35,937 nucleotides of DNA from a virus (taxonomy: Duplodnaviria; Heunggongvirae; Uroviricota; Caudoviricetes). The notes beneath the pieces were generated by a model. That model had not been told where the DNA came from and ran no database searches. It worked only from the letters and a program-made list of their open reading frames with translations. Below, one piece after another: positions 7,472-35,364 of the stretch (its first letter is position 1; each line of letters begins with the position of its first letter). The stretch covers positions 1-35,937 of IMG/VR virus record IMGVR_UViG_2778261229_000003. One strand, written 5' to 3'. The translations under genes and the position numbers were made by a program.

Positions 7472-8440
7472 TTAGTAGGTTATTTTTGTTGCGAATACTT
7501 CGCCTTTTACGATGGCTGTTATGATATTTTTAGCAACATCTTCTGATGCGCCAACCTTGATAAGGTCAGCAAGTATTTTGTTATTTACTTCTTTCCGGTG
7601 AGCTTTATCCTTTGCTCTACGCTCTTCTTCGTCCTTGATTCTTTTTTCTTCTGCTATTCTGGCTTGCTCTTTTGCTTCAGCCTCGCGCCGGATTCGTTCT
7701 GCCTCCTCCTGTGCTTTACGGCGTTCTGCTTCAATTGCCGCATGCTTTTCTCTTTCAGTTCGTTCTGCTGCCTCTTTTGCTTCGCGCTGTGCTCGTTGCT
7801 CGGCTTCAATGCGTTCACGCTCTGCACGTTCCGCTGCGGCCTTAGCTTCTGCTTCTCGCCTTGCTGCTGCTTCAATTTCGGCTTTTGCCTTTGCTTCGGC
7901 TTCTGCTCTGGCTTTCTCTTCAGCTTCTCTTTTTAAGCGTTCTTCATGCTCTCGCTTTTCCTGCTCCGCTTTGAGTCTTTCCTCTTCTCTTTGGCGGTCA
8001 AATTCGCGATCCATCAAAATCGCTATTTCATGGTCAGACTCAATTTGCTTTGCGAGAGCTTCAGCTGCTGCCTTAGCTTCTTCTTCGGCTTTAATCCGCG
8101 CCTGTTCTTCCTCATAATCAGTAAGAGGCTGGCGCGCCTTGGCTTTCAGTTCATCAAGGCGATCGCGCACTGTCTTGCGGTTGGCATCAATTAGCTTTGG
8201 AATTTCCTTAAGTTCAGCAACAAGGTCTTTGCCAAGACCATCGAGATATGTTTTCGTCTGCGCAACTTTATACGCCAGAGAAGCGATCTCCTTTCTGCCC
8301 TTTGCCGTTGTGATATCAGGCACAAAGGACATAACTTCACGTTCAACCTTTTGAAGGATTTCTTCAATCTGGTCGGCAGACTGAAATACAGTCATTGCAT
8401 TTGCTTTTTCAATAACAACTAAATCTGTTACTTCACTCAT
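7472..8440 (-). CDS. ER/K-rich charged-repeat protein (predicted single alpha-helix / coiled coil), unknown function
   Basis: Track ORF 7472-8494; start refined to ATG 8440 (MSEVTDLV) with GGAGG RBS; central ~170 aa of A/E/K/R repeats (EAEAKAKAEIEAAARREAEAK...). Confidence 0.6.
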   Translation of the reverse strand: MSEVTDLVVIEKANAMTVFQSADQIEEILQKVEREVMSFVPDITTAKGRKEIASLAYKVAQTKTYLDGLGKDLVAELKEIPKLIDANRKTVRDRLDELKAKARQPLTDYEEEQARIKAEEEAKAAAEALAKQIESDHEIAILMDREFDRQREEERLKAEQEKREHEERLKREAEEKARAEAEAKAKAEIEAAARREAEAKAAAERAERERIEAEQRAQREAKEAAERTEREKHAAIEAERRKAQEEAERIRREAEAKEQARIAEEKRIKDEEERRAKDKAHRKEVNNKILADLIKVGASEDVAKNIITAIVKGEVFATKITY

Positions 8441-8452
8441 ATATCCTCCGTT

Positions 8453-8479
8453 AAAAAAATCGCCCTCACATTGGAGGGC
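8453..8479 (-). terminator. tL1-like rho-independent terminator (minus strand)
   Basis: Minus-strand hairpin GCCCTC-CAATGT-GAGGGC followed by GATTTTTTT, immediately upstream of the RBS of the ER/K-rich gene. Confidence 0.5.
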
Positions 8480-8541
8480 AAAGAAGATTTCCAATAATCA
8501 GAACAAGTCGGCTCCTGTTTAGTTACGAGCGACATTGCTCC

Positions 8542-8628: not shown

Positions 8629-9078
8629 TTACTTAACCAATGATGCTGCATATTCGATAAGGTAAAGCTTTGGGGCCAGCCAAATTTTTAACCAAGTCAT
8701 ATTGGTTACTACACCAATAATAAAAATCCCCCACAGAGTCAAAACTCCAACCAATGGCATGATAAGAAGATTAATATCACCTTTGCTATCCCAAACCATT
8801 GTCGGCCTGTATTTGGCATTTCCTTTCTCCCATGAATATCCTTCATCACCGATTTTACCTGTCTCAACTCTTTGGCACTGCTTCTTCATAAACCAGAAAA
8901 CTAGTGGGATTGTTAGAATGGCCATTAATGTTTTAATCAGACTGTCAACCATATTCCATAGCAGCAACTGATGAACAACATCAGGAATCTGTGCCTGGCT
9001 AAATGAAACAGCCGCGTCTATTCCATTGCTGGCTTTTTGCAGTAGTTCTACGAGAATCTTGTTTGCTTGTTCTTCCAT
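8629..9078 (-). CDS. Membrane protein at the SieB position (candidate superinfection exclusion)
   Basis: 149-aa ORF with 2-3 predicted hydrophobic helices (LMAILTIPLVFWFM; LLIMPLVGVLTLWGIFIIGVV); directly downstream of N and upstream of terminators. Confidence 0.4.
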   Translation of the reverse strand: MEEQANKILVELLQKASNGIDAAVSFSQAQIPDVVHQLLLWNMVDSLIKTLMAILTIPLVFWFMKKQCQRVETGKIGDEGYSWEKGNAKYRPTMVWDSKGDINLLIMPLVGVLTLWGIFIIGVVTNMTWLKIWLAPKLYLIEYAASLVK

Positions 9079-9086
9079 ATATCACC

Positions 9087-9413
9087 TCAAATAAGTGGTT
9101 TGCTGCCTAATTTCATTTTCTGGCGCCCAACACAAGTCACACCCATTTCGCTGCGTGGCTTGCTGTACCATGTGCGCTGATTCTTTCGCTGAATACGTTG
9201 CAGGTTGCTTTCAATCTGTTCGTGGTATTCAGCCAGCACTGTAAGGTCTATTGGATTCAGTGCGCTTTCTACTCGTGATTTCGGTTTGCGATTCAGCGAG
9301 AGAATAGGGCGGTTAACTGGTTTTGCGCTTACCCCAACCAACAGTGGATTTGCTGCTTTCCATTGAGCCTGTTTCTCTGCGCGACGTTCGCGGCGGCGTG
9401 TTTGTGCATCCAT
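9087..9413 (-). CDS. N: Antitermination protein N
   Basis: Start refined to MDAQTRRRERRAEKQAQWKAANPLLVG... which matches lambda N nearly residue-for-residue (from memory); arginine-rich boxB-binding motif. Confidence 0.9.
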   Translation of the reverse strand: MDAQTRRRERRAEKQAQWKAANPLLVGVSAKPVNRPILSLNRKPKSRVESALNPIDLTVLAEYHEQIESNLQRIQRKNQRTWYSKPRSEMGVTCVGRQKMKLGSKPLI

Positions 9414-9635: not shown

Positions 9636-9726
9636 GGCTTAAAATATACCTACAGGTAAAAGTGTTGTCTATACCTGCAGGTAAATAAAATTGGTGTCAG
9701 AGTTTACCTGTTTGAATTTTCAGGTA
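9636..9726 (-). promoter_or_regulatory. pL promoter with oL operators
   Basis: Leader ATCAGCAGGACGCACT as in lambda pL transcript; operators tacctacaggta (9647-9658), tacctgcaggta (9672-9683) and TACCTG-N10-CAGGTA (9705-9726); candidate -10 TATATT. Confidence 0.6.
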
Positions 9727-9744: not shown

Positions 9745-9770
9745 TATAAAAAAGCCCGCTTTGCGGGCTG
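9745..9770 (-). terminator. Rho-independent terminator of the cI operon (minus strand)
   Basis: Minus-strand hairpin AGCCCGC-AAA-GCGGGCT followed by TTTTTTATAT, 11 nt after the stop at 9781. Confidence 0.6.
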
Positions 9771-9780
9771 AAAGGAGATG

Positions 9781-10077
9781 TCAGAAGCTATTTGGATTGC
9801 TTGGCCATTGCGGCAATTTTGATTCTACCGGGGTGTGTTTGGGTTTGAGTCCGTTTAAGTAGTCAAGACGCTCAATGGCGCATTTATACATAGCAATCTG
9901 ATCTGATGACATGTCGTCATATGACATGCCTTTGAACTTCTTAATTATCGTTTCTGCCTCATGTATAAGATGCTTCTTCTTCATGAGTTCAGCTGTATGC
10001 TTAGAGCTTACAGGAGATAACTTTGCCCATATGAAGCAGATGATTACAACAGCGACCACTATACCTGGTATAAACAT
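9781..10077 (-). CDS. Small single-pass membrane protein co-transcribed with cI (rex-position moron)
   Basis: Track ORF 9781-10095 (TTG); first ATG at 10077 gives MFIPGIVVAVVIICFIWAKL (N-terminal TM helix) + ~75-aa soluble domain; GAGGA overlaps cI stop. Confidence 0.5.
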   Translation of the reverse strand: MFIPGIVVAVVIICFIWAKLSPVSSKHTAELMKKKHLIHEAETIIKKFKGMSYDDMSSDQIAMYKCAIERLDYLNGLKPKHTPVESKLPQWPSNPNSF

Positions 10078-10091
10078 TTGCTGCTTTATCC

Positions 10092-10778
10092 TCAAAATTT
10101 TGGCAGATCGTCCTGGTCTACGTACCTAGTGTGTTTCACAATAGCTGAAACAAAATGCATTTTATCAACTTCTTCAACAGGAAGAGTGATTGGACGGTGA
10201 TCGCTGTTTATACTACTAAACTGATAGTCTCCGTCTCTTGTTTTGTTCATGATCTTTATCATGTTATGACCATCTTTGGTCCTTACAAAGACTTCATCAC
10301 CTGGATGTACTGGCGTATTTGGTTCAATAACAACATATTCTCCTGACTGAATCCTTGGCCACATGCTGTCACCCTTAACCTTCAGACCGTAAGCATCTTT
10401 ATCGCCACTGTAGATGCTTAACCAACCGGATCTGAATTCAATCATATCCACTGAGCCATCAACTCCCAAAACGGCTTCACCAATTACCGGAACAAAACCC
10501 GCACGAACGTTACCCGCAAACTCAAGATGGTCTGCAGATCCAACTTTGCTATCTGCAAGCATGTCCATCCATCCGCGTGGGAGATTAAAAGATTTTTCAA
10601 TTAGTTCCATCATATCGTCAGCAATGCGTTTTTTTCCGCTTTTTCCTTCCGGATACAGCATTCTGGAAACGTATGATGGTTCCCTTTCTATTCGACGAGC
10701 CAACTCTGAGGCCTTTCCATTACAGAATCGGTCTCTTATCTCTATCAGCCTTAGTCGTCTTTGTTCGTATTTATCCAT
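10092..10778 (-). CDS. cI: CI-type repressor (HTH + S24 LexA-like peptidase domain)
   Basis: 228-aa ORF; C-terminal domain with AG cleavage-site candidate (VRAGFVP), catalytic Ser in GDSMWP and downstream Lys; divergent from cro across an operator region. Confidence 0.85.
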   Translation of the reverse strand: MDKYEQRRLRLIEIRDRFCNGKASELARRIEREPSYVSRMLYPEGKSGKKRIADDMMELIEKSFNLPRGWMDMLADSKVGSADHLEFAGNVRAGFVPVIGEAVLGVDGSVDMIEFRSGWLSIYSGDKDAYGLKVKGDSMWPRIQSGEYVVIEPNTPVHPGDEVFVRTKDGHNMIKIMNKTRDGDYQFSSINSDHRPITLPVEEVDKMHFVSAIVKHTRYVDQDDLPKF

Positions 10779-10798
10779 GATTTAATTCTATCTTTGAT

Positions 10799-10860
10799 TA
10801 CCTATCGGTAAATAACCTGTGGGTATTGATTTGTTTTTTACCTGCAGGTAAACTCACCTT
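10799..10860. promoter_or_regulatory. oR operators with divergent pRM/pR promoters
   Basis: Operators tacctatcggta (10799-10810), acctgtgggta (about 10814-10825) and tacctgcaggta (10839-10850); pR candidate -35 TTGATT (10826-10831), 17-bp spacer, -10 TAAACT. Confidence 0.6.
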
Positions 10861-22539: not shown

Positions 22540-24738
22540 ATGGCAGAAAAAAAGATGACTGACTGGCATCGCAAGGTGCTGTGCAACTTTGATAATGCCT
22601 GGTCAGCAACGCAGGATATGCGTGAGCAGATTATTGAGGCTCAACGTTTCGTCCGGGTATCCGGCGCACAGTGGGAAGGCAGCACAAACGCTGGTTACTC
22701 ATTTGATGAAGGCAGGTTTGAGCATTACCCGCGCTTTGAACTGAATAAGATTGCCCGTGAATGTGATCGCATCATTGGCGAGTATCGACAGAATCGCATC
22801 AGCGTTAAATTCAGGCCGAAGGACGATAAGGCATCGGAAGCGTTAGCCGAAAAGATGAACGGCAAATTCCGCGCTGACTATCAGGAAACATCCGGTGGCG
22901 AAGCGTGTGATAACGCATTTGATGATGCTGTAACGGGCGGATTCGGTTGTTTCCGCATGTGTGCCGATTACGAAGATGAAATGGATCCGAGTAACGAGCA
23001 GCGACGCATCAGCCTTCTTCCTGTTTACGACCCAGCGACATGCGTCTTCTTCGATCAGGACAGCAAGCAATATGACCGCTCTGATGCTATGTGGGCTATG
23101 GAAATGTTCTCCATGACGCCTAAAGCGTTCGAGGCTGAATACCCTGATTCCATCGCGGCAAGCCTTTCTCGTGATGACACTGGCACTCAATATGACTGGT
23201 CAACGCCAGATGCCATCTATGTTGGTCGCTACTACGAAGTTCGCATAGAGAAGGTGAAGCTCACGGCATGGCGCAACCCTGTTAGCGGAGAAACGGCAAT
23301 CTATGATGAAGAGCAAATCAAAGATATTGTCGACGAGCTGACCGATGGCGCATTCGAACTGATTGGTGAGCGGACAGTGAAGAAACGCAGAGTTTATTGC
23401 GGTCTTCTGTCTGGCGCTGAATGGCTGGAAGAACCGAAGCGTATTCCGGGCGAACATATTCCTCTCATCCCGGTATATGGGCGTCGCTCATTTGTTGATA
23501 ATCAGGAGCGAATCGAAGGCCACGCAGCAAAAGCGATGGATGCACAGCGTCTTGAGAACCTGATGGTTTCCATGATTGCAGATAACGCTACTCAGGCTGG
23601 CGGTGATGGAATTCCTGTAGTTGATGTTGACATGATTCCTGGTCCTCTCGCCACTCATTGGGCGGAGCGCAACAAAAAGCGCCCGGCGTTCCTGCCGATG
23701 GTAAGTCTGAAAAACAAAAACGGAGATATTACTGCGCAGGCTCAGGTCAGCAGTTATACACCTCCGACACAAATGCCTCCTGCTCTTGCCGGGCTATTGC
23801 AGTACACCGGAACGGCTATTCAGCAAATTACAGGCGCGTCGCAGCTTGAGAACATGCCGAGCAACGTCGCCACCGATACCGTTGATAGCATCTTTAACCG
23901 GATGGACACGCAGTCCTATATCTACATGGACAACATGGCTAAATCCATGCGTCGCGCTGGTGTTGTGTGGCTTTCTATGGCGCGTGAGGTCTATGGCAGT
24001 GATACGCCGATGCGTATCGTTAATGAGGACGGCAGCGATGACGTGGCGCTGATGACTGGTGAAGTGGTTGACCGTCAGACAGGGCAGGTTATCGCGCTTA
24101 ATGACCTTTCGCATGGCAACTATGAAGTGACTGTCGATGTCGGTCAGTCGTTCGCTACTCGCCGTGATGCAACGGTTAAGTCGTTACTTTCCATGCTGGC
24201 ACTTATCCCACCAGGAACGCCGAAGCACGACCTTGTATCGTCGATGATTCTCGACAATATGGACGGCGAAGGGATGGACGACCTTAAAGAATACAACCGC
24301 AATCAGTTGCTTCTGTCTGGAGTTATCAAGCCGAGAACACCAGAAGAACAGCAGATGGTTGAGCAGGCGAAACAACAACAGGACAGTCAGCCAGATCCGG
24401 CTATGGTTGCAGCGCAAGGTCAGCTTCTTGCAGGTCAGGCTGAATTGCAGAAAGCGCAGAACGAACAGGCAGCCATTCAGGTTAAAGCATTCCAGGCACA
24501 GACTGATGCTCAGGTTGCAGCGGCAAACGTTGTGAAAATCCTCGCATCTGCCGATAGCCAGCAGAAATCTGATATCCGCGAGGCTCTGAAACTGCTCGGA
24601 CAGTTCCAGCAACAGCAAGGAGACAATGCCCGTGCTGATGCAGAGCTTGTCCTGAAAAGTCAGGCGCAGGGCCATGCGCAGCGCATGGACATCAGCAGCA
24701 TCCTGCAAAAATCAACTCAGCAACAACCACAGCAGTAA
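22540..24738 (+). CDS. Portal protein (P22 gp1-like)
   Basis: 732-aa ORF; segments RRVYCGLLSGAEWLEEPKRIPGEHIPLIPVYG and C-terminal PEEQQMVEQAKQQQDSQPDPAMVAAQGQLLAGQAELQKAQN resemble P22 portal. Confidence 0.85.
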   Translation: MAEKKMTDWHRKVLCNFDNAWSATQDMREQIIEAQRFVRVSGAQWEGSTNAGYSFDEGRFEHYPRFELNKIARECDRIIGEYRQNRISVKFRPKDDKASEALAEKMNGKFRADYQETSGGEACDNAFDDAVTGGFGCFRMCADYEDEMDPSNEQRRISLLPVYDPATCVFFDQDSKQYDRSDAMWAMEMFSMTPKAFEAEYPDSIAASLSRDDTGTQYDWSTPDAIYVGRYYEVRIEKVKLTAWRNPVSGETAIYDEEQIKDIVDELTDGAFELIGERTVKKRRVYCGLLSGAEWLEEPKRIPGEHIPLIPVYGRRSFVDNQERIEGHAAKAMDAQRLENLMVSMIADNATQAGGDGIPVVDVDMIPGPLATHWAERNKKRPAFLPMVSLKNKNGDITAQAQVSSYTPPTQMPPALAGLLQYTGTAIQQITGASQLENMPSNVATDTVDSIFNRMDTQSYIYMDNMAKSMRRAGVVWLSMAREVYGSDTPMRIVNEDGSDDVALMTGEVVDRQTGQVIALNDLSHGNYEVTVDVGQSFATRRDATVKSLLSMLALIPPGTPKHDLVSSMILDNMDGEGMDDLKEYNRNQLLLSGVIKPRTPEEQQMVEQAKQQQDSQPDPAMVAAQGQLLAGQAELQKAQNEQAAIQVKAFQAQTDAQVAAANVVKILASADSQQKSDIREALKLLGQFQQQQGDNARADAELVLKSQAQGHAQRMDISSILQKSTQQQPQQ

Positions 24739-29942: not shown

Positions 29943-30421
29943 TGGAAATAAAGCTCATCGATAATCCGGTGAAGCTTGCAGAATTCCTCAACAACCCGGC
30001 AAACACGGGAAATATCGTAGACAGTGGAGACAAATACTACATCAAGCCTGATGCGGTATACCTCGGCATCTACGAAGGACTGATGCTGGTCGGAGTGCAT
30101 GAAGTGCGTAACTTCTGGCATAGCGTTGTTGAATGCCATGCGGTGTACGACCCCGGATTCCGTGGCGAATATGCACTGCAAGGGCATCGATTATTCTGCA
30201 AATGGCTTCTCGAAAACTCACCATTCCTTAACAGCATCACTATGGTTCCTGACACCACGAAATACGGACGGTCAATTATCCGTTTGCTTGGCGCTACCCG
30301 TGTTGGTCACCTTGATGATGCTTATACCAGCAATGGAAAGCCTGTAGGCATCACGATTTATCAGTTACCGCGCTCAAAATACGAGGAGCTAAAGAATGTT
30401 AATTTTCCAGATTGCCAATAA
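29939..30421 (+). CDS. gp14-like virion assembly/ejection accessory protein
   Basis: 160-aa ORF in the position of P22 gene 14, ATGA-coupled to needle gene; similarity not verified. Confidence 0.45.
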
Positions 30422-31070
30422 GCACCTCAGCAAAACTGTTTACTGCAAAGGTGGCGGTGATGGCGGTTCAAAAGCCCAGGCACGCGCCACTGAAAAGGGC
30501 ATCGAACTGCAGCGTGAAATGTGGCAAACGAACATGCAGAACCTTGCACCGTTTACGCCACTCGCTCAGCAGTACGTATCAGAGTTGCAAAATCTTTCCT
30601 CTCTTCAGGGGCAAGGTAAGGCGCTTAACCAGTATTACAACTCTCAGCAGTATAAAGACCTTGCAGGGCAGGCGCGCTATCAGAGTCTGGCAGCAGCAGA
30701 GGCAACTGGTGGATTAGGCTCTACAGCAACAGGAAACCAGTTAGCAGCAATCGCACCTACACTCGGTCAAAACTGGCTGTCAGGTCAGATGAACAACTAC
30801 AACAATCTGGCAAATATCGGCCTTGGTGCTCTTACAGGTCAGGCAAATGCCGGACAGAACTACGCTAACAACGTCAGCCAATTGTATCAACAGCAGGCGG
30901 CAGCATCTGCGGCTAATGCTAACCGACCATCAGGACTGCAATCAGCCTTGGGAGGTGCCATGAGCGGTGCTGCATCAGGGGCGATGATTGGCTCTGTGGT
31001 GCCTGGAATAGGTACAGCTGTTGGCGCTATTGGTGGCGGTATTATCGGTGGGCTTGGATCATTGTTTTAA
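30396..31070 (+). CDS. Ejection protein (P22 gp7-like)
   Basis: 224-aa Gly/Gln/Ala-rich ORF in gene 7 position; start uncertain (overlaps upstream ORF by 26 nt). Confidence 0.6.
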   Translation: MLIFQIANKHLSKTVYCKGGGDGGSKAQARATEKGIELQREMWQTNMQNLAPFTPLAQQYVSELQNLSSLQGQGKALNQYYNSQQYKDLAGQARYQSLAAAEATGGLGSTATGNQLAAIAPTLGQNWLSGQMNNYNNLANIGLGALTGQANAGQNYANNVSQLYQQQAAASAANANRPSGLQSALGGAMSGAASGAMIGSVVPGIGTAVGAIGGGIIGGLGSLF

Positions 31071-31079
31071 GGTGGGAAT

Positions 31080-32381
31080 ATGGCTACTTGGCAACAAGGA
31101 ATCAACTCAGGCGGCTTTCTTGCTGGTATCGGTGGGCAAAACTCAAATGCGCCAAAGGCAAGTGATGTAAGTGAGGCGTTGGCCTATATTCGCCAGAACA
31201 ACGAAATGGAGCGCTCAGGTCGCAATAACATCGGCCTTCAGGCGTTGCAGGGTCTTGGTAGTGTCGCTCAAGCATATCAAGCCGCAAAGCAACAGGAAGC
31301 GGATGCTGCATTCCAAAAAGAATATGCGGCAGCCATCCAGTCCGGCGATCGACAGCAGGTTCGAAATCTGATGACCAAATATCCTGGTCAATTAGAGAAG
31401 ATTCAGTCTGGTATGAAGTGGGCAGACGAAGACCAGCGCAATTCCATCGGTACCTTAGCGGCTGGCGCACGCCTTGCGTCATCGTCTCCAGAAGCAATGC
31501 AATCATGGCTGCAAAACAACGCCAAGGAACTGACTCGCGTCGGTGTTGACCCTAATAACGTTGCTCAGATGTATCAGCAGAATCCTTCAGGATTTGGTGA
31601 GTTTGTTGATCACCTTGGAATGGCTGCTCTTGGTCCGATTGATTACTTCAATGTTCAGGACAAGATGGCTGGTCGTGAGATTGACCGAGGCAGGCTGGCA
31701 GAGACAATCCGCAGCAATCAGGCAGGAGAAGCACTAACAGCTCGAGGTCAGGACATCCAGATACGTGGACAGAACATCAGCGCACAGAATGCTGCTCTTT
31801 CCCGAGAAATACAAAGAGCAGAATTACAAGAAAAGGCTCTGGACAGACAGATAGCCAGAGAAAGCAATCAGTTAAAGCTTGAAGAGCTAAAACAGAAACA
31901 GGCAGATGTTCGGCAAAAGGCTGACATAGCCCGCGCTGACAGGCAGGCCGCCGCTCAGGGTGCAGTTGATACGTTCAGCACCGCGCTTGATTCTCTCAAC
32001 GAGATAGAGCAAAGCCCCGGCCTTTCAAAAGCAGTAGGAATTCGCTCAGCGTTTCCGACAGTTCCTGGCTCTGATGCGGCTAACTTTGAAGCAAGGCTCG
32101 ACACCTTTAAAGCTCAAACATTCCTTCCTATGGTGCAGTCCCTGAAGGGTATGGGCGCTCTTTCAGATGCAGAGGGTAAAAAATTATCCGATGCGGTTGG
32201 TGCCCTAAGCCCCAAAATGAGTGAAAAGGCTTTTCGTGACTCTATCGGAAAGATTAGAAATCAGCTTGAAAGCAAGTTGAGCACTGTTAAAAAACAGTTT
32301 GATTATCAGGAGCCAGTACAGAATACGCCAGCGCAACAACCTACTACTGGCAGTAATTTTTCTTCACTATGGGGTGATTAA
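31080..32381 (+). CDS. Ejection protein (P22 gp20-like)
   Basis: 433-aa ORF in gene 20 position, coiled-coil central region. Confidence 0.6.
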   Translation: MATWQQGINSGGFLAGIGGQNSNAPKASDVSEALAYIRQNNEMERSGRNNIGLQALQGLGSVAQAYQAAKQQEADAAFQKEYAAAIQSGDRQQVRNLMTKYPGQLEKIQSGMKWADEDQRNSIGTLAAGARLASSSPEAMQSWLQNNAKELTRVGVDPNNVAQMYQQNPSGFGEFVDHLGMAALGPIDYFNVQDKMAGREIDRGRLAETIRSNQAGEALTARGQDIQIRGQNISAQNAALSREIQRAELQEKALDRQIARESNQLKLEELKQKQADVRQKADIARADRQAAAQGAVDTFSTALDSLNEIEQSPGLSKAVGIRSAFPTVPGSDAANFEARLDTFKAQTFLPMVQSLKGMGALSDAEGKKLSDAVGALSPKMSEKAFRDSIGKIRNQLESKLSTVKKQFDYQEPVQNTPAQQPTTGSNFSSLWGD

Positions 32382-34378
32382 TGGCTAAAGCATGGAAAGA
32401 TGTTATCGCCTCTCCACAGTATCAGGCGTTAGCACCAGAACAAAAAGCGCAGGCTCAGGAGCAATACTTCAATGAAGTCGTGGCCCCGCAAGCCGGAGAA
32501 AATGCAGAGCAGGCTAAGCAAGCTTTCTATGCTGCCTATCCATTGCCATCTGTGCAGCCAGTGGATACACAGCAACCAGTAGCACAGCAACAACCACAGC
32601 AAAGTGGATTTATGTCTGATCTTGGTGAAGCCGTGAAAGAAACTGGTCGCGGACTGGTGCAGGCTGGCGTGAACGTGGCAAACATACCTGCATCAGTTGC
32701 CGATGCTGTAACAAGCGCGGCGGCTTGGGCTGGCGGTAAACTCGGAATTGGCGATGGGACATATCACCCAGCGCCACGAGTAACAACGCAGGGATTAGAG
32801 CAGGACTTTGGCCTTCAGCAAGGCGCGCTGACTCCACAAACTACAGAGGGCAGGGTATTTGCTGAGGCATTGCCTTACCTCACTCCTGCTGGCATTGAGA
32901 GAGCGGCAACACAGGCACCAACACTCGCTGGTAGAATCGCTCAGGGTGCAACTCGCCTTCTCGCTGAAAACGCAGTCGGGTCACTTGCTGCAAATAGTGC
33001 GAAAGATGATGCGGAAGCCCTCGCCACCGATTTAGGTGTTGGCGTTCTGGCAGGCGGCGCTATTAACGCTGCTGGACGTGGATTAGGTGCTGCTTATCGT
33101 GGCGTTAGTGGTGCTATTGCGCCAGAAGCGCAGCAGGCTATCAGATTTGCAGAGCGTGAAGGAGTTCCTCTGCACACCACAGACCTGTTACAGCCTACTT
33201 CCCGCGTCGGGAAAATGGCGCAGACGACAGCGGAAAATATCCCCCTGGCTGGCACAAGCGGAATGAGAGCAACGCAACAGGAAGCGAGAAGCCAGTTGGT
33301 GCAGAGATTTGCTGATAAATTCGGTGAGTATGATCCAGCTGTTGTTATTGACAGCCTTAAAGCGAAAACATCAGGAATTCGTCGTGCTGCAGGGAACCGT
33401 CTTGAGCAGGTTCAGAATGCAATGGCGGGAGTCAATATCCAGCCTGCGCGAGCAATTCAGCAGATTGATACTGAGATATCTAACCTGCAGAAGCTTGGTA
33501 AGGTTGCTGATAACGAGACTATTTCAAAACTTCAATCATATCGTGATGAACTTGTTCGCAATGCTGGTCCTGATGGTCCGGTAAATCTGGATTTGAAGCA
33601 ATTAAGCGACCTGCGCAGCCAGTTCAGAATGGACGTGAAAGGTGAGCGACCAGTGTTACCAAACCGTTCCGATGCTGCCATTCAGCGCGTTTACAAGGCA
33701 ATGACCGACGATATCAATGGTGCCATTGGTCAGAATCTTGGCAACGATACTCTCCGTAAATATCAGCAGGCCAATGCCGTCTACGCTGACGAAGCGGCGA
33801 AACTAAAGAATACCAGGCTGAAGAATGTTCTCATGAAAGGCGACCTGACGCCGGAAGTTGTCAACAACATGCTATTCAGCAAGAACAAATCGGAAATTAA
33901 GACTCTGTATAACTCAGTTGGTCGTGTTGGCAGGACGCAAATGCGCAATGGCATCATTGGAAAGGCGATGGAGAAATCTGGCGGATCCCCTGACCAGTTC
34001 CTTCGGCAGCTTAACATCCTGCAAAACCAGACTGGCATCACATTTAAGGGGCAGGACGCTGCTTATCTGAAAGGATTAAAAAACTACCTGCAATCCACGC
34101 AGCAGGCTGCAAAAGCGGCAGTAACAACACCCACAGGGCAGCAAACTATCCCGTTCATAATTGGGTATGGGACGGCAATGAACCCGGCTACAACTGGCGC
34201 AGCAGTAAGCTACGGACTTCTTACTCGCGCCTATGAGAGCGAGCCATTCAGAAATGCAATGCTACGAATGGCAAACACACAACGCGGATCGACAGCGTTT
34301 GAGAAAGCCATGCAGCAAGCGCAAAAAGCGATTAATGCACTGACGCAGGGTGCGAAGTCTGATTCGTTGTCAGAATAG
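32381..34378 (+). CDS. Ejection protein (P22 gp16-like)
   Basis: 665-aa ORF in gene 16 position, ATGA-coupled to upstream gene. Confidence 0.6.
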   Translation: MAKAWKDVIASPQYQALAPEQKAQAQEQYFNEVVAPQAGENAEQAKQAFYAAYPLPSVQPVDTQQPVAQQQPQQSGFMSDLGEAVKETGRGLVQAGVNVANIPASVADAVTSAAAWAGGKLGIGDGTYHPAPRVTTQGLEQDFGLQQGALTPQTTEGRVFAEALPYLTPAGIERAATQAPTLAGRIAQGATRLLAENAVGSLAANSAKDDAEALATDLGVGVLAGGAINAAGRGLGAAYRGVSGAIAPEAQQAIRFAEREGVPLHTTDLLQPTSRVGKMAQTTAENIPLAGTSGMRATQQEARSQLVQRFADKFGEYDPAVVIDSLKAKTSGIRRAAGNRLEQVQNAMAGVNIQPARAIQQIDTEISNLQKLGKVADNETISKLQSYRDELVRNAGPDGPVNLDLKQLSDLRSQFRMDVKGERPVLPNRSDAAIQRVYKAMTDDINGAIGQNLGNDTLRKYQQANAVYADEAAKLKNTRLKNVLMKGDLTPEVVNNMLFSKNKSEIKTLYNSVGRVGRTQMRNGIIGKAMEKSGGSPDQFLRQLNILQNQTGITFKGQDAAYLKGLKNYLQSTQQAAKAAVTTPTGQQTIPFIIGYGTAMNPATTGAAVSYGLLTRAYESEPFRNAMLRMANTQRGSTAFEKAMQQAQKAINALTQGAKSDSLSE

Positions 34379-34468: not shown

Positions 34469-34954
34469 TTATCTGATGCTACTGCTACTGTTGCATGTTA
34501 CCGTGTTTCTAAATCCTGAATTGCAGTTTGTGTAAGTGTCAACTCGTGTTGGATAGGGTTGAGTTATAACAGGCTGTCTCGCTTTTTGCTCGATCGCTTG
34601 CATTGTGTTTACAGCCTGATAATTCAATAAAGCCTGCTGGAATGCTTGGCTTTGTGCTATTTGTTGGGCTTGTTCTTGGCTTTGTAATTGAACATAAAGA
34701 TTCTGAAGCTCAAGTCTTGCCTGTGCGTCACTTATCTTGCCTTCATCGACACTTTGCCCGAGCATCTTTGCAGCAAGGACATACAGCTTAGGTGTTGGTG
34801 CTGATGCCATGCGTGAGTCGTTCTTCACACTGGCATCAAGGCAATTAGCCATATCGCTAAGCTTTTGATAGCGTTGTTCGCAACTTGCTTGATAGTCACT
34901 TACTTTTGCGCACCCAACCAGCAGAAGCGGGATAATTAACAGTGATTTTTTCAT
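34469..34954 (-). CDS. Predicted lipoprotein (moron; candidate exclusion/lysogenic-conversion protein)
   Basis: Start refined to MKKSLLIIPLLLVGCAKV (signal peptide + lipobox LVGC), AAGGAG RBS; Gln-rich middle region; same strand as and 70 nt downstream of mnt. Confidence 0.6.
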   Translation of the reverse strand: MKKSLLIIPLLLVGCAKVSDYQASCEQRYQKLSDMANCLDASVKNDSRMASAPTPKLYVLAAKMLGQSVDEGKISDAQARLELQNLYVQLQSQEQAQQIAQSQAFQQALLNYQAVNTMQAIEQKARQPVITQPYPTRVDTYTNCNSGFRNTVTCNSSSSIR

Positions 34955-35024: not shown

Positions 35025-35291
35025 CTATGTTCCCTTTTTATTATTGCTATACATGGTCTTAAGCGTTTCAAAAACCATTTTCTTAACCATATCAGATTGT
35101 TGTTCTGCTATACGCTCTGCATCGTCAATGTAAACTGATGCAGAGCTTTGTTTAGCCAATGATTCTTCAATCGCTGCAATTATCTCTGAGTTCAGCGACC
35201 TGTTATTCATCTTCGCGCGCTGTTTAATTTTCGCGTGAAGTTCATGCGGAAGTCTCAAGTGAAACTGCGCCTCGTCGTATTTACTGTACAT
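35025..35291 (-). CDS. mnt: Mnt-like ribbon-helix-helix repressor
   Basis: Start refined to MYSKYDEAQFHLRLPHELHAKIKQRAKMNNRSLNSEIIAAIEESL...; RHH N-terminus and C-terminal DDAERIAEQQSDMVKKMVFETLK resemble P22 Mnt. Confidence 0.7.
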   Translation of the reverse strand: MYSKYDEAQFHLRLPHELHAKIKQRAKMNNRSLNSEIIAAIEESLAKQSSASVYIDDAERIAEQQSDMVKKMVFETLKTMYSNNKKGT

Positions 35292-35364
35292 CCTTGATGC
35301 CTCACCAGTTGGGTGGAATGGCATCGTAACCTACTGGATAAATACTCAATAGTACCATTTCGAT

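What the first reader, a model, noticed from the sequence alone, without database searches (positions are those of the whole stretch)
9781..10095. Small membrane protein translationally coupled to cI at the rexAB-equivalent position
Lambda carries rexA/rexB, an abortive-infection system, directly downstream of cI in the pRM transcript. Here that slot holds a single ~98-aa ORF (TM helix FIPGIVVAVVIICFIWAKL plus a ~75-aa soluble domain) whose RBS overlaps the cI stop and which is followed by a clean terminator (9745-9770). A gene expressed with the repressor in lysogens is a strong candidate for a compact phage-exclusion or toxin-like function; I do not recognise the protein.
Basis: partly seen in the sequence, partly recalled or inferred. 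Interest (0 to 1): 0.65.

Follow-up and report, generated by a model that had tools for sequence, protein, structure and literature searches.

The report
Unstudied small membrane gene beside repressor
A real, conserved 98-residue membrane protein sits directly after the prophage repressor gene, its relatives occupy two phage genome positions known for genes that keep other phages out, and it is probably a new anti-phage exclusion protein that nobody has tested.

Summary
On the minus strand a 98-aa ORF (ATG 10077, stop 9783-9781) follows cI (10092-10778). A GAGGA ribosome-binding site overlaps the cI stop, and an intrinsic terminator (9769-9747) lies just before OL/pL. The operator sets OR and OL bracket a two-gene cI-ORF unit laid out like lambda cI-rexAB.

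The ORF is a real gene. It matches PHROG 10450 (unknown function) end to end, has about ten invariant residues, and shows dN/dS of 0.16-0.27. It evolves 6-10 times faster than the adjacent cI.

The family is tiny: 10 hits among 1.84 billion representatives, all Enterobacteriaceae. It has no Pfam, PADLOC, NCBIfam, PDB or fold match.

Its members occupy two lysogen-expressed slots. Subfamily A (this gene) always lies 3-14 nt after the same cI type. Subfamily B lies in P22-like phages, next to the ejection-protein gene 16 and downstream of mnt. That is where P22 keeps sieA, to which the family is unrelated.

All 20 members checked have one N-terminal transmembrane helix, predicted N-out/C-in, plus a helical hairpin.

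Best reading: a prophage-expressed inner-membrane exclusion protein, analogous to SieA and HK97 gp15. Function is inferred from position and architecture only; nothing was tested experimentally.

The parts
10785..10812 (-). pRM-like promoter (TTTACC-16-TAGAAT). The -10 hexamer ends 7 nt before the cI ATG, which implies a leaderless cI-ORF transcript.
   Evidence: Consensus scan. Function is inferred by analogy with lambda pRM.
10798..10851 (.). OR: three TTACC-N4-GGTA palindromic operator sites.
   Evidence: 11 matches in the window against 3.2 expected, and 0 of 100 shuffles reached 11.
10092..10778 (-). cI repressor, 228 aa, with an S24 autopeptidase domain.
   Evidence: It is 98% identical to mEp043 cI.
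10089..10093 (-). Shine-Dalgarno GAGGA overlapping the cI stop codon TGA (10094-10092).
   Evidence: Read from the sequence. GAGGA also sits at the cI stop in L010 and L012-14.
9781..10077 (-). The 98-aa ORF including its stop codon; member of PHROG 10450, subfamily A of the family described here.
10018..10074 (-). Codons 2-20: the single N-terminal transmembrane helix (FIPGIVVAVVIICFIWAKL).
   Evidence: Mean Kyte-Doolittle 2.53. Helical in both AlphaFold models.
9784..10017 (-). Codons 21-98: basic juxtamembrane stretch, helical hairpin (helix to residue 47, helix 58-76) and an extended tail with invariant W91-P92. Predicted to be cytoplasmic.
   Evidence: Invariant residues are K34 I38 E40 A41 M56 C66 A67 L71 W91 P92.
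9747..9769 (-). Intrinsic terminator ending the cI-ORF unit.
   Evidence: -12.6 kcal/mol, z -2.65.
9643..9684 (-). pL (TAGACA-17-TATATT, 9671-9643) overlapped by two OL operator palindromes (9646-9659 and 9671-9684).
   Evidence: The N gene follows at about 9087-9410.

Best explanation
The ORF encodes a prophage-expressed, single-pass inner-membrane protein that travels as an accessory gene ('moron') of the immunity operon.

Expression: it is transcribed with cI, from a pRM-like promoter in the lysogen and presumably from pRE during establishment. It is translated from its own GAGGA site at the cI stop, and the transcript ends at the terminator in front of OL/pL.

Architecture: the protein inserts with a 1-4-residue N-terminus facing outward. 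A roughly 75-residue helical-hairpin domain is held at the cytoplasmic face of the membrane.

Proposed function: it protects the lysogen against superinfecting phages by acting at the inner membrane. The most probable action is interference with the DNA-entry step. It would do this by binding the incoming phage's membrane conduit proteins (gp16/gp20/gp7 in P22-like phages, the tape-measure channel in siphoviruses) or a host membrane factor they need. P22 SieA and HK97 gp15 are thought to act in these ways.

Shown: gene reality, operon anatomy, family distribution, the two slots, and fast evolution under purifying selection.
Inferred: co-transcription, membrane topology, and the anti-phage function with its step of action.
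For: Operon anatomy:
- OR, pRM-like promoter, cI, SD at the cI stop, ORF, terminator, then OL/pL. This is the layout of lambda cI-rexA-rexB.

The ORF is a real protein:
- PHROG 10450 matches 98 of 98 positions at E 1e-55.
- Ten residues are invariant across 23 sequences that are 27-98% identical.
- dN/dS is 0.16 against mEp043 and 0.27 for L010 against L012.

Slot 1, the rex position:
- In five independent metagenomic or genomic loci, the 35-42% identical homologue lies 3-5 nt after an 83-88% identical cI and before N. The rest of each early region is mosaically different.

Slot 2, the sieA position:
- The 30-37% identical subfamily lies in P22-like phages immediately convergent with ejection-protein gene 16. 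It is downstream of Mnt/Arc in N7, L006 and L008. This is the position of P22 sieA.
- No SieA or SieA motif is present in any of these loci.

Both slots are documented homes of lysogen-expressed exclusion or abortive-infection genes:
- RexAB and BstA sit in the cI-N gap, which is described as a mosaic hotspot (PMC8585504).
- SieA sits between genes 16 and 9 (PMC10883804).

Evolution and architecture:
- The ORF's dN is 6-10 times that of the linked cI, as expected for a gene in a host-parasite arms race.
- All 20 members checked have one N-terminal TM helix, no K/R before it and 1-6 K/R in the next 15 residues.
- HK97 gp15, a proven inner-membrane DNA-entry blocker, has the same build: N-terminal TM plus a short basic helical tail.
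Against: - No experiment, expression data or phenotype exists for any family member. No paper cites the protein accessions.
- There is no sequence or fold similarity to any known defence protein, so the function rests on position and architecture alone.
- The module occurs both in a lambda-like siphovirus (mEp043) and in P22-like podoviruses (the window; E. coli K56-43). A specific link to P22-type ejection proteins is therefore not established.
- Lysogen-expressed slots also carry non-defence cargo. H-19B has a HigBA-like pair there.
- A domain facing the cytoplasm is not the obvious geometry for blocking a periplasm-spanning conduit. Against that, the conserved motif of SieA is also predicted to be cytoplasmic.
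- Topology comes from the positive-inside rule only.
Confidence: 0.45

Rival explanations
1. A membrane-acting abortive-infection or toxin-like effector. The small protein would oligomerise in the membrane and depolarise or permeabilise the cell when triggered by an infecting phage, as RexB does when activated by RexA. The infected cell dies and phage spread stops.
For: It sits in the same slot as RexAB and BstA, both abortive-infection systems. It is a membrane protein. It is a stand-alone gene with no conserved partner in either slot.
Against: A single TM helix with no sensor partner is a poor match to known abortive-infection channels; RexB has four TM helices and needs RexA. A constitutively expressed toxin without an antitoxin would be costly, and no partner gene is conserved. 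There is no similarity to holins or RexB.
Confidence: 0.15
2. A lysogenic-conversion or host-modulating small membrane protein with no direct anti-phage role. It would bind and tune a host inner-membrane protein (transporter, sensor kinase, protease such as FtsH/HflKC, Sec/YidC components) and so alter host fitness. Many small bacterial membrane proteins work this way.
For: It is expressed from lysogen-active positions in both subfamilies. It is a small single-TM protein with a conserved cytoplasmic surface including K34, E40, C66 and R70. The moron literature lists many non-defence functions (PMC3594210). Alternative occupants of the slot include non-defence-looking cargo.
Against: Its rapid divergence relative to cI fits an arms race better than binding to a conserved host protein. 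Subfamily B sits consistently against the ejection-protein genes at the sieA site. The family is restricted to prophages and has no chromosomal homologues.
Confidence: 0.25
3. A phage-autonomous regulatory factor of the lysis-lysogeny circuit, for example one that stabilises lysogeny or modulates induction or repressor and antirepressor activity. That would explain why it is linked to repressor genes (cI here, mnt elsewhere).
For: In subfamily A it is tightly and invariantly juxtaposed to one cI type. In subfamily B it is downstream of Mnt. There is a weak PHROG hit to a 'transcriptional regulator' family (phrog_1077, E 0.0032).
Against: cI (an S24 LexA-like protein) and Mnt (ribbon-helix-helix) are unrelated repressors with different circuits. 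In L004 and L007 no Pfam-recognisable repressor gene is adjacent. Related cI proteins function without it: H-19B cI is 49% identical and its slot holds other genes. There is no DNA-binding fold. A membrane anchor is unusual for such a regulator.
Confidence: 0.1
4. A spurious or decaying ORF: the stretch is only a spacer and terminator region of the cI transcript.
For: NCBI's PGAP pipeline leaves it unannotated in most of the 52 RefSeq E. coli genomes that carry the module. Short fragments of 42-73 aa exist in some assemblies.
Against: The protein is conserved at full length down to 27% identity, with invariant residues. dN/dS is below 0.3. A conserved start and RBS are present. It matches a PHROG family end to end. 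At least 156 intact copies are on record.
Confidence: 0.03

Closest known systems
Lambda RexA/RexB (abortive infection, cI-rexA-rexB operon)
   Same: It occupies the same genomic slot: after cI, before OL/pL, on the repressor strand, and ended by a terminator. A membrane component is involved. The slot is known as a mosaic hotspot for defence genes (PMC8585504).
   Different: This is one 98-aa gene with one TM helix, against two genes (RexA 279 aa cytosolic, RexB 144 aa with four TM helices). There is no homology: hhalign probability to RexB is 0.3% and PADLOC gives no hit.
P22 SieA (types A, B and C), inner-membrane superinfection exclusion protein
   Same: Subfamily B occupies exactly the sieA position, convergent with gene 16 and downstream of mnt. 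It is an inner-membrane protein expressed from the prophage. The conserved part is predicted to be cytoplasmic in both.
   Different: SieA is 162-164 aa (type A) with three TM helices, four in types B and C, and carries the motif FxRYPxEAxxFNK. This family is about 100 aa with one TM helix and no such motif. hhalign probability is 0.2%. It is not a homologue.
HK97 gp15 (YebO-like moron, superinfection exclusion at DNA entry)
   Same: The build is the same: a hydrophobic helix starting at the extreme N-terminus, followed by a basic helical tail. It is a stand-alone moron with its own terminator and is expressed from the prophage.
   Different: gp15 is 62 aa and lies in the tail operon, not beside a repressor. 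There is no sequence relation (hhalign probability 0.8%). gp15 has chromosomal YebO relatives, whereas this family has none.
BstA (BTP1 and other prophages), abortive infection with aba self-immunity
   Same: [quoted passage not shown]
   Different: BstA localises to sites of phage DNA replication rather than to the membrane (PMC8585504 abstract). No Pfam domain or BstA model matches this ORF.
PHROG 10450
   Same: Full-length match, 1-98 of 98 positions, E 1e-55. The ORF is a member.
   Different: The PHROG carries no functional annotation, so membership says nothing about function.

Membership tests
PHROG 10450 (unknown function) | Significant full-length match to the family HMM | tested here: met
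   E 1e-55, 187 bits, residues 1-98 against profile 1-98 of 98.
Lambda RexAB system | Location between cI and OL/pL, on the cI strand | tested here: met
   cI 10092-10778, ORF 9781-10077, terminator 9747-9769, OL/pL 9643-9684. Lambda layout.
Lambda RexAB system | Two components: RexA sensor plus four-TM RexB, with sequence homology to them | tested here: not met
   A single 98-aa gene with one TM helix. hhalign to RexB gives probability 0.3%. PADLOC gives no hit.
P22 SieA family (types A-C) | Sequence homology, including the conserved motif FxRYPxEAxxFNK | tested here: not met
   hhalign probability 0.2%. The motif and tblastn hits are found only in P22 itself among all loci examined.
P22 SieA family (types A-C) | Three or four transmembrane helices in a protein of about 160-200 aa | tested here: not met
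   One hydrophobic segment only; the second-best window has Kyte-Doolittle 0.46 or less in all 20 members. Length is 97-114 aa.
P22 SieA family (types A-C) | Position between genes 16 and 9 of a P22-like prophage | tested here: met
   Met for subfamily B (L003, L004, L006, L007, L008). The window's own gene is at the rex slot instead, and the window's sieA slot holds a lipoprotein-like ORF.
P22 SieA family (types A-C) | Blocks DNA injection by P22-like phages | not testable with these tools
   Needs plating, K+ efflux and DNA-entry assays.
HK97 gp15 / YebO family | Sequence homology to gp15/YebO | tested here: not met
   hhalign probability 0.8% with 1 aligned column.
BstA | Match to a BstA profile or to any recognisable domain | tested here: not met
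   No Pfam domain above threshold. No PADLOC hit.
Prophage moron (functional class, not a homology family) | Accessory gene whose presence varies between related phages, positioned for expression from the repressed prophage, with its own terminator | tested here: met
   The slot content differs in H-19B, whose cI is 49% identical. The family occurs in two unrelated slots. A terminator follows the gene. Expression itself was not tested.

The most novel reading that the evidence does not exclude
This is the founding member of a new single-gene superinfection-exclusion family that has colonised both classic exclusion slots of lambdoid and P22-like prophages: the rex slot after cI and the sieA slot after mnt. 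It would block genome entry from the cytoplasmic face of the inner membrane through a roughly 75-residue helical hairpin. Its target would be the membrane end of the incoming phage's DNA conduit, or a host factor such as YajC. That would make it a non-homologous functional replacement for SieA.
Probability: 0.3. Interest if true: 0.6.

Novelty: new variant of a known kind. Interest (0 to 1): 0.45.

Why it matters
If the protein does exclude phages, it would add a very small (98 aa), single-gene inner-membrane defence. It is carried by about 1% of complete E. coli genomes in each subfamily, and standard annotation and defence-finder tools currently miss it.

The family occupies both the rex slot and the sieA slot, so it offers a natural comparison for the still unresolved question of how inner-membrane proteins such as SieA and HK97 gp15 stop phage DNA from crossing the membrane. 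A 75-residue domain with ten invariant residues is much easier to study than SieA.

It also shows that 'the gene right after the repressor' is a productive rule for finding prophage defences. If the gene instead has a host-modulating role, it is still an uncharacterised lysogen-expressed membrane protein of pathogenic and commensal E. coli.

Tried and rejected
- Known-family searches found nothing. Pfam gave only sub-threshold noise (TTC3, Chromo_MIT1). PADLOC gave no hit. NCBIfam gave only E 0.11 noise. A PDB sequence profile search gave E of 0.44 or worse, against designed helical filaments.
- Direct profile comparisons with P22 SieA, lambda RexB and HK97 gp15 were all negative.
- I considered the TTG start at 10095 (104 aa, N-terminal MRIKQQ), which would reverse the charge-based topology call. 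I rejected it because the family N-terminus M-[FYW]-I is conserved and L011 has an in-frame stop directly upstream of its start.
- I considered that the family is specific to P22-like virions. I rejected this as a firm claim because mEp043 is a lambda-like siphovirus.
- I looked for an internal promoter inside cI, like pLit. There were only chance-level matches.
- Rfam found no RNA family anywhere in the window.
- Promoter and terminator scans around subfamily B genes were uninformative.
- Literature searches for the protein accessions or for any mEp043 exclusion phenotype found nothing.

Full report
**What is there.** The window is a lambdoid prophage with P22-type virion genes: portal 22540-24738, and ejection proteins gp7 30396-31070, gp20 31080-32381 and gp16 32381-34378. 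Its immunity region is 96% identical in DNA to coliphage mEp043.

On the minus strand the order is as follows:
- OR, three TTACC-N4-GGTA palindromes at 10798-10851. The window has 11 matches against 3.2 expected.
- A pRM-like promoter, TTTACC-16-TAGAAT, at 10812-10785.
- cI at 10778-10092, 228 aa, with an S24 peptidase domain at E 1.4e-17.
- The ORF in question.
- An intrinsic terminator: stem 9769-9753 followed by a T run, -12.6 kcal/mol, and 0 of 200 shuffles folded as well.
- OL/pL: TAGACA-17-TATATT at 9671-9643, with operator palindromes at 9646-9684.
- A lambda-type N gene.

This is the architecture of lambda cI-rexA-rexB, with one small gene in place of two.

**The observation.** The 98-aa reading starts at ATG 10077. 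GAGGA at 10093-10089 overlaps the cI TGA and lies 11 nt before the ATG.

Homologues all begin M/V-[FYW]-I-[PS]. In one relative an in-frame stop lies directly before that start. The 98-aa form is therefore the conserved product.

In relatives the gap between cI and the ORF is only 3-5 nt, usually with GAGGA inside the end of cI. Tight juxtaposition is thus conserved, but true translational coupling is not demonstrated.

Residues 2-20 are the only hydrophobic segment, with mean Kyte-Doolittle 2.53.

**Is it a gene?** Yes, on several grounds:
- It matches PHROG 10450 (unknown function) over 98 of 98 positions at E 1e-55.
- Intact copies form clusters of 135, 20 and 1 sequences.
- Against mEp043 the ORF has 6 synonymous and 4 non-synonymous changes, giving dN/dS 0.16.
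- In the informative pair L010 and L012, dN/dS is 0.27 for the ORF and 0.025 for cI.
- Across 23 sequences that are 27-98% identical, K34, I38, E40, A41, M56, C66, A67, L71, W91 and P92 are invariant.

**How wide is the family?** It is very narrow. An exhaustive HMMER scan of 1.84 billion representative proteins gave 10 hits at E below 1e-3. Profile searches of 5.8 billion clusters gave 20-25 clusters. Where a source names the organism, it is E. coli, E. fergusonii, Salmonella or Cronobacter.

Of 50,697 phage records, five carry a member: three mEp043 records, N7 and HZ41. Among 5,426 complete E. coli genomes, 52 carry this cI-ORF module and 57 carry the N7-type gene. In most RefSeq genomes listed, PGAP does not annotate the ORF.

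**The two slots are the main new result.**

Subfamily A is 97-98 aa and 35-42% identical to the window protein. In all five loci examined it lies directly after a 231-237-aa S24 repressor and before N. The replication and recombination genes around it are mosaically different.

Those repressors are 83-88% identical to the window's cI, while the small proteins are only 35-42% identical. The ORF's dN is about 0.6 against about 0.1 for cI. The ORF is therefore an old passenger of this immunity module, and it diverges 6-10 times faster than the repressor.

Subfamily B is 101-114 aa and 30-37% identical. It lies in P22-like phages and prophages, immediately convergent with ejection-protein gene 16. 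It is downstream of an Arc/Mnt-family repressor gene in phage N7, L006 and L008. In L008 it follows Mnt directly.

That is precisely where P22 carries sieA. The P22 SieA paper states that sieA homologues always lie between genes 16 and 9, and that only 22 of 66 P22-like phages have one (PMC10883804).

None of the loci carrying the new family contains SieA or its conserved motif. The family is not homologous to SieA (hhalign probability 0.2%).

The cI-N gap is itself described as a hotspot of mosaic diversity that holds RexAB and BstA (PMC8585504). In H-19B, whose cI is 49% identical, the gap holds a HigBA-like pair and other ORFs.

The module is not tied to one virion type. mEp043 is a lambda-like siphovirus. 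The window and the prophage of E. coli K56-43 are P22-like.

**The protein.** All 20 members checked share these features:
- one hydrophobic helix starting at residue 1-3;
- no Lys or Arg before it;
- 1-6 Lys or Arg in the next 15 residues.

By the positive-inside rule this predicts N-out/C-in topology, which puts the conserved domain in the cytoplasm. This is an inference and was not tested.

Two AlphaFold runs, with 15 and 23 sequences and pLDDT 75 and 79, agree. The TM helix runs into a long helix ending at residue 47. A short loop carries the conserved S-W-x-[DE]-M. A second helix covers residues 58-76 and carries C66, A67, R70, L71 and L74. An extended tail follows, with the invariant W91-P92.

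**Most likely function.** I commit to a prophage-expressed inner-membrane exclusion protein, with confidence about 0.45.

The steps that are shown:
- the gene is real;
- the operon anatomy is as described;
- the family is restricted to prophages;
- it occupies two independent lysogen-expressed slots that are classic homes of exclusion genes;
- it evolves fast while remaining under purifying selection.

The steps that are inferred:
- transcription from pRM/pRE together with cI;
- the membrane topology;
- the anti-phage role, and its step of action (DNA entry at the inner membrane).

The closest functional analogues are P22 SieA and HK97 gp15. [quoted passage not shown] Escape mutations map to gp16 and gp20, and its conserved motif is predicted to be cytoplasmic. 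HK97 gp15 is a 62-aa protein with the same N-terminal-TM-plus-basic-helix build that blocks genome entry. Neither is a homologue.

The rivals are:
- a RexB-like abortive-infection or toxic membrane effector (0.15);
- a host-modulating small membrane protein with no defence role (0.25);
- a regulator of the lysis-lysogeny circuit (0.10);
- a spurious ORF (0.03, effectively excluded by the conservation data).

**Novelty and score.** The kind of thing is well known: a lysogen-expressed moron beside the repressor, probably defensive. A specialist would not be surprised to find a gene there.

What is new is the family itself, which is uncharacterised and has no detectable relatives. Also new is its use of both the rex and the sieA slots, which turns a vague guess into a sharp, cheap experiment. 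I rate it a new variant of a known kind, with interest 0.45.

Noticed in passing
window 34469-34954 (-), with Mnt at 35025-35324 (-): This phage's own sieA slot lies downstream of Mnt and convergent with gp16. It holds a 161-aa ORF with a lipoprotein signal (MKKSLLIIPLLLVGC). The ORF matches PHROG 6067 (unknown function) and shows no similarity to SieA. It is a second candidate lysogen-expressed envelope protein in the same prophage.
   Followed up: partly
window 8629-9078 (-): A 149-aa ORF with hydrophobic, membrane-like segments lies immediately after N in the pL operon. It matches PHROG 3054 (unknown function) and has no Pfam, PADLOC or NCBIfam hit.
   Followed up: partly
window 7472-8494 (-): A 340-aa protein extremely rich in E, A, K and R, annotated 'TolA' or 'Sf6 gp33-like' in relatives, lies in the pL operon. 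It matches PHROG 1376 (unknown function).
   Followed up: no
window 10785-10812 and cI start at 10778: The -10 hexamer of the pRM-like promoter ends 7 nt before the cI ATG. The cI-ORF mRNA would therefore be leaderless, as for lambda pRM.
   Followed up: no
52 RefSeq E. coli chromosomes, e.g. NZ_CP026399.1 5272678-5273278: PGAP annotates only the S24 repressor and leaves the conserved 98-aa ORF uncalled in most genomes listed that carry the module. Only a few carry 'hypothetical protein' (WP_000470488.1).
   Followed up: partly
L016 (phage H-19B) 2801-3504: The cI-N gap of H-19B is unannotated in the record. It contains what looks by eye like a HigB/HigA-type toxin-antitoxin pair (95 aa plus 139 aa), plus further ORFs. 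This is another example of variable cargo at this slot.
   Followed up: no
L003 (phage N7) 3008-3848: Between mnt and the family member, N7 carries two further unknown ORFs. One is a 115-aa protein with CxxC pairs that suggest a zinc ribbon (PHROG 4293). The other is a 169-aa protein with a central hydrophobic helix (PHROG 24865). L006 has two different ORFs in the same place, so only the family member is conserved.
   Followed up: partly
window 10095 and L010 about 4980: An in-frame TTG lies six codons upstream of the conserved start in both the window and L010. In L011 a stop lies there instead. If used, the extension (MRIKQQ) would add positive charge at the N-terminus and could alter topology.
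   Followed up: partly
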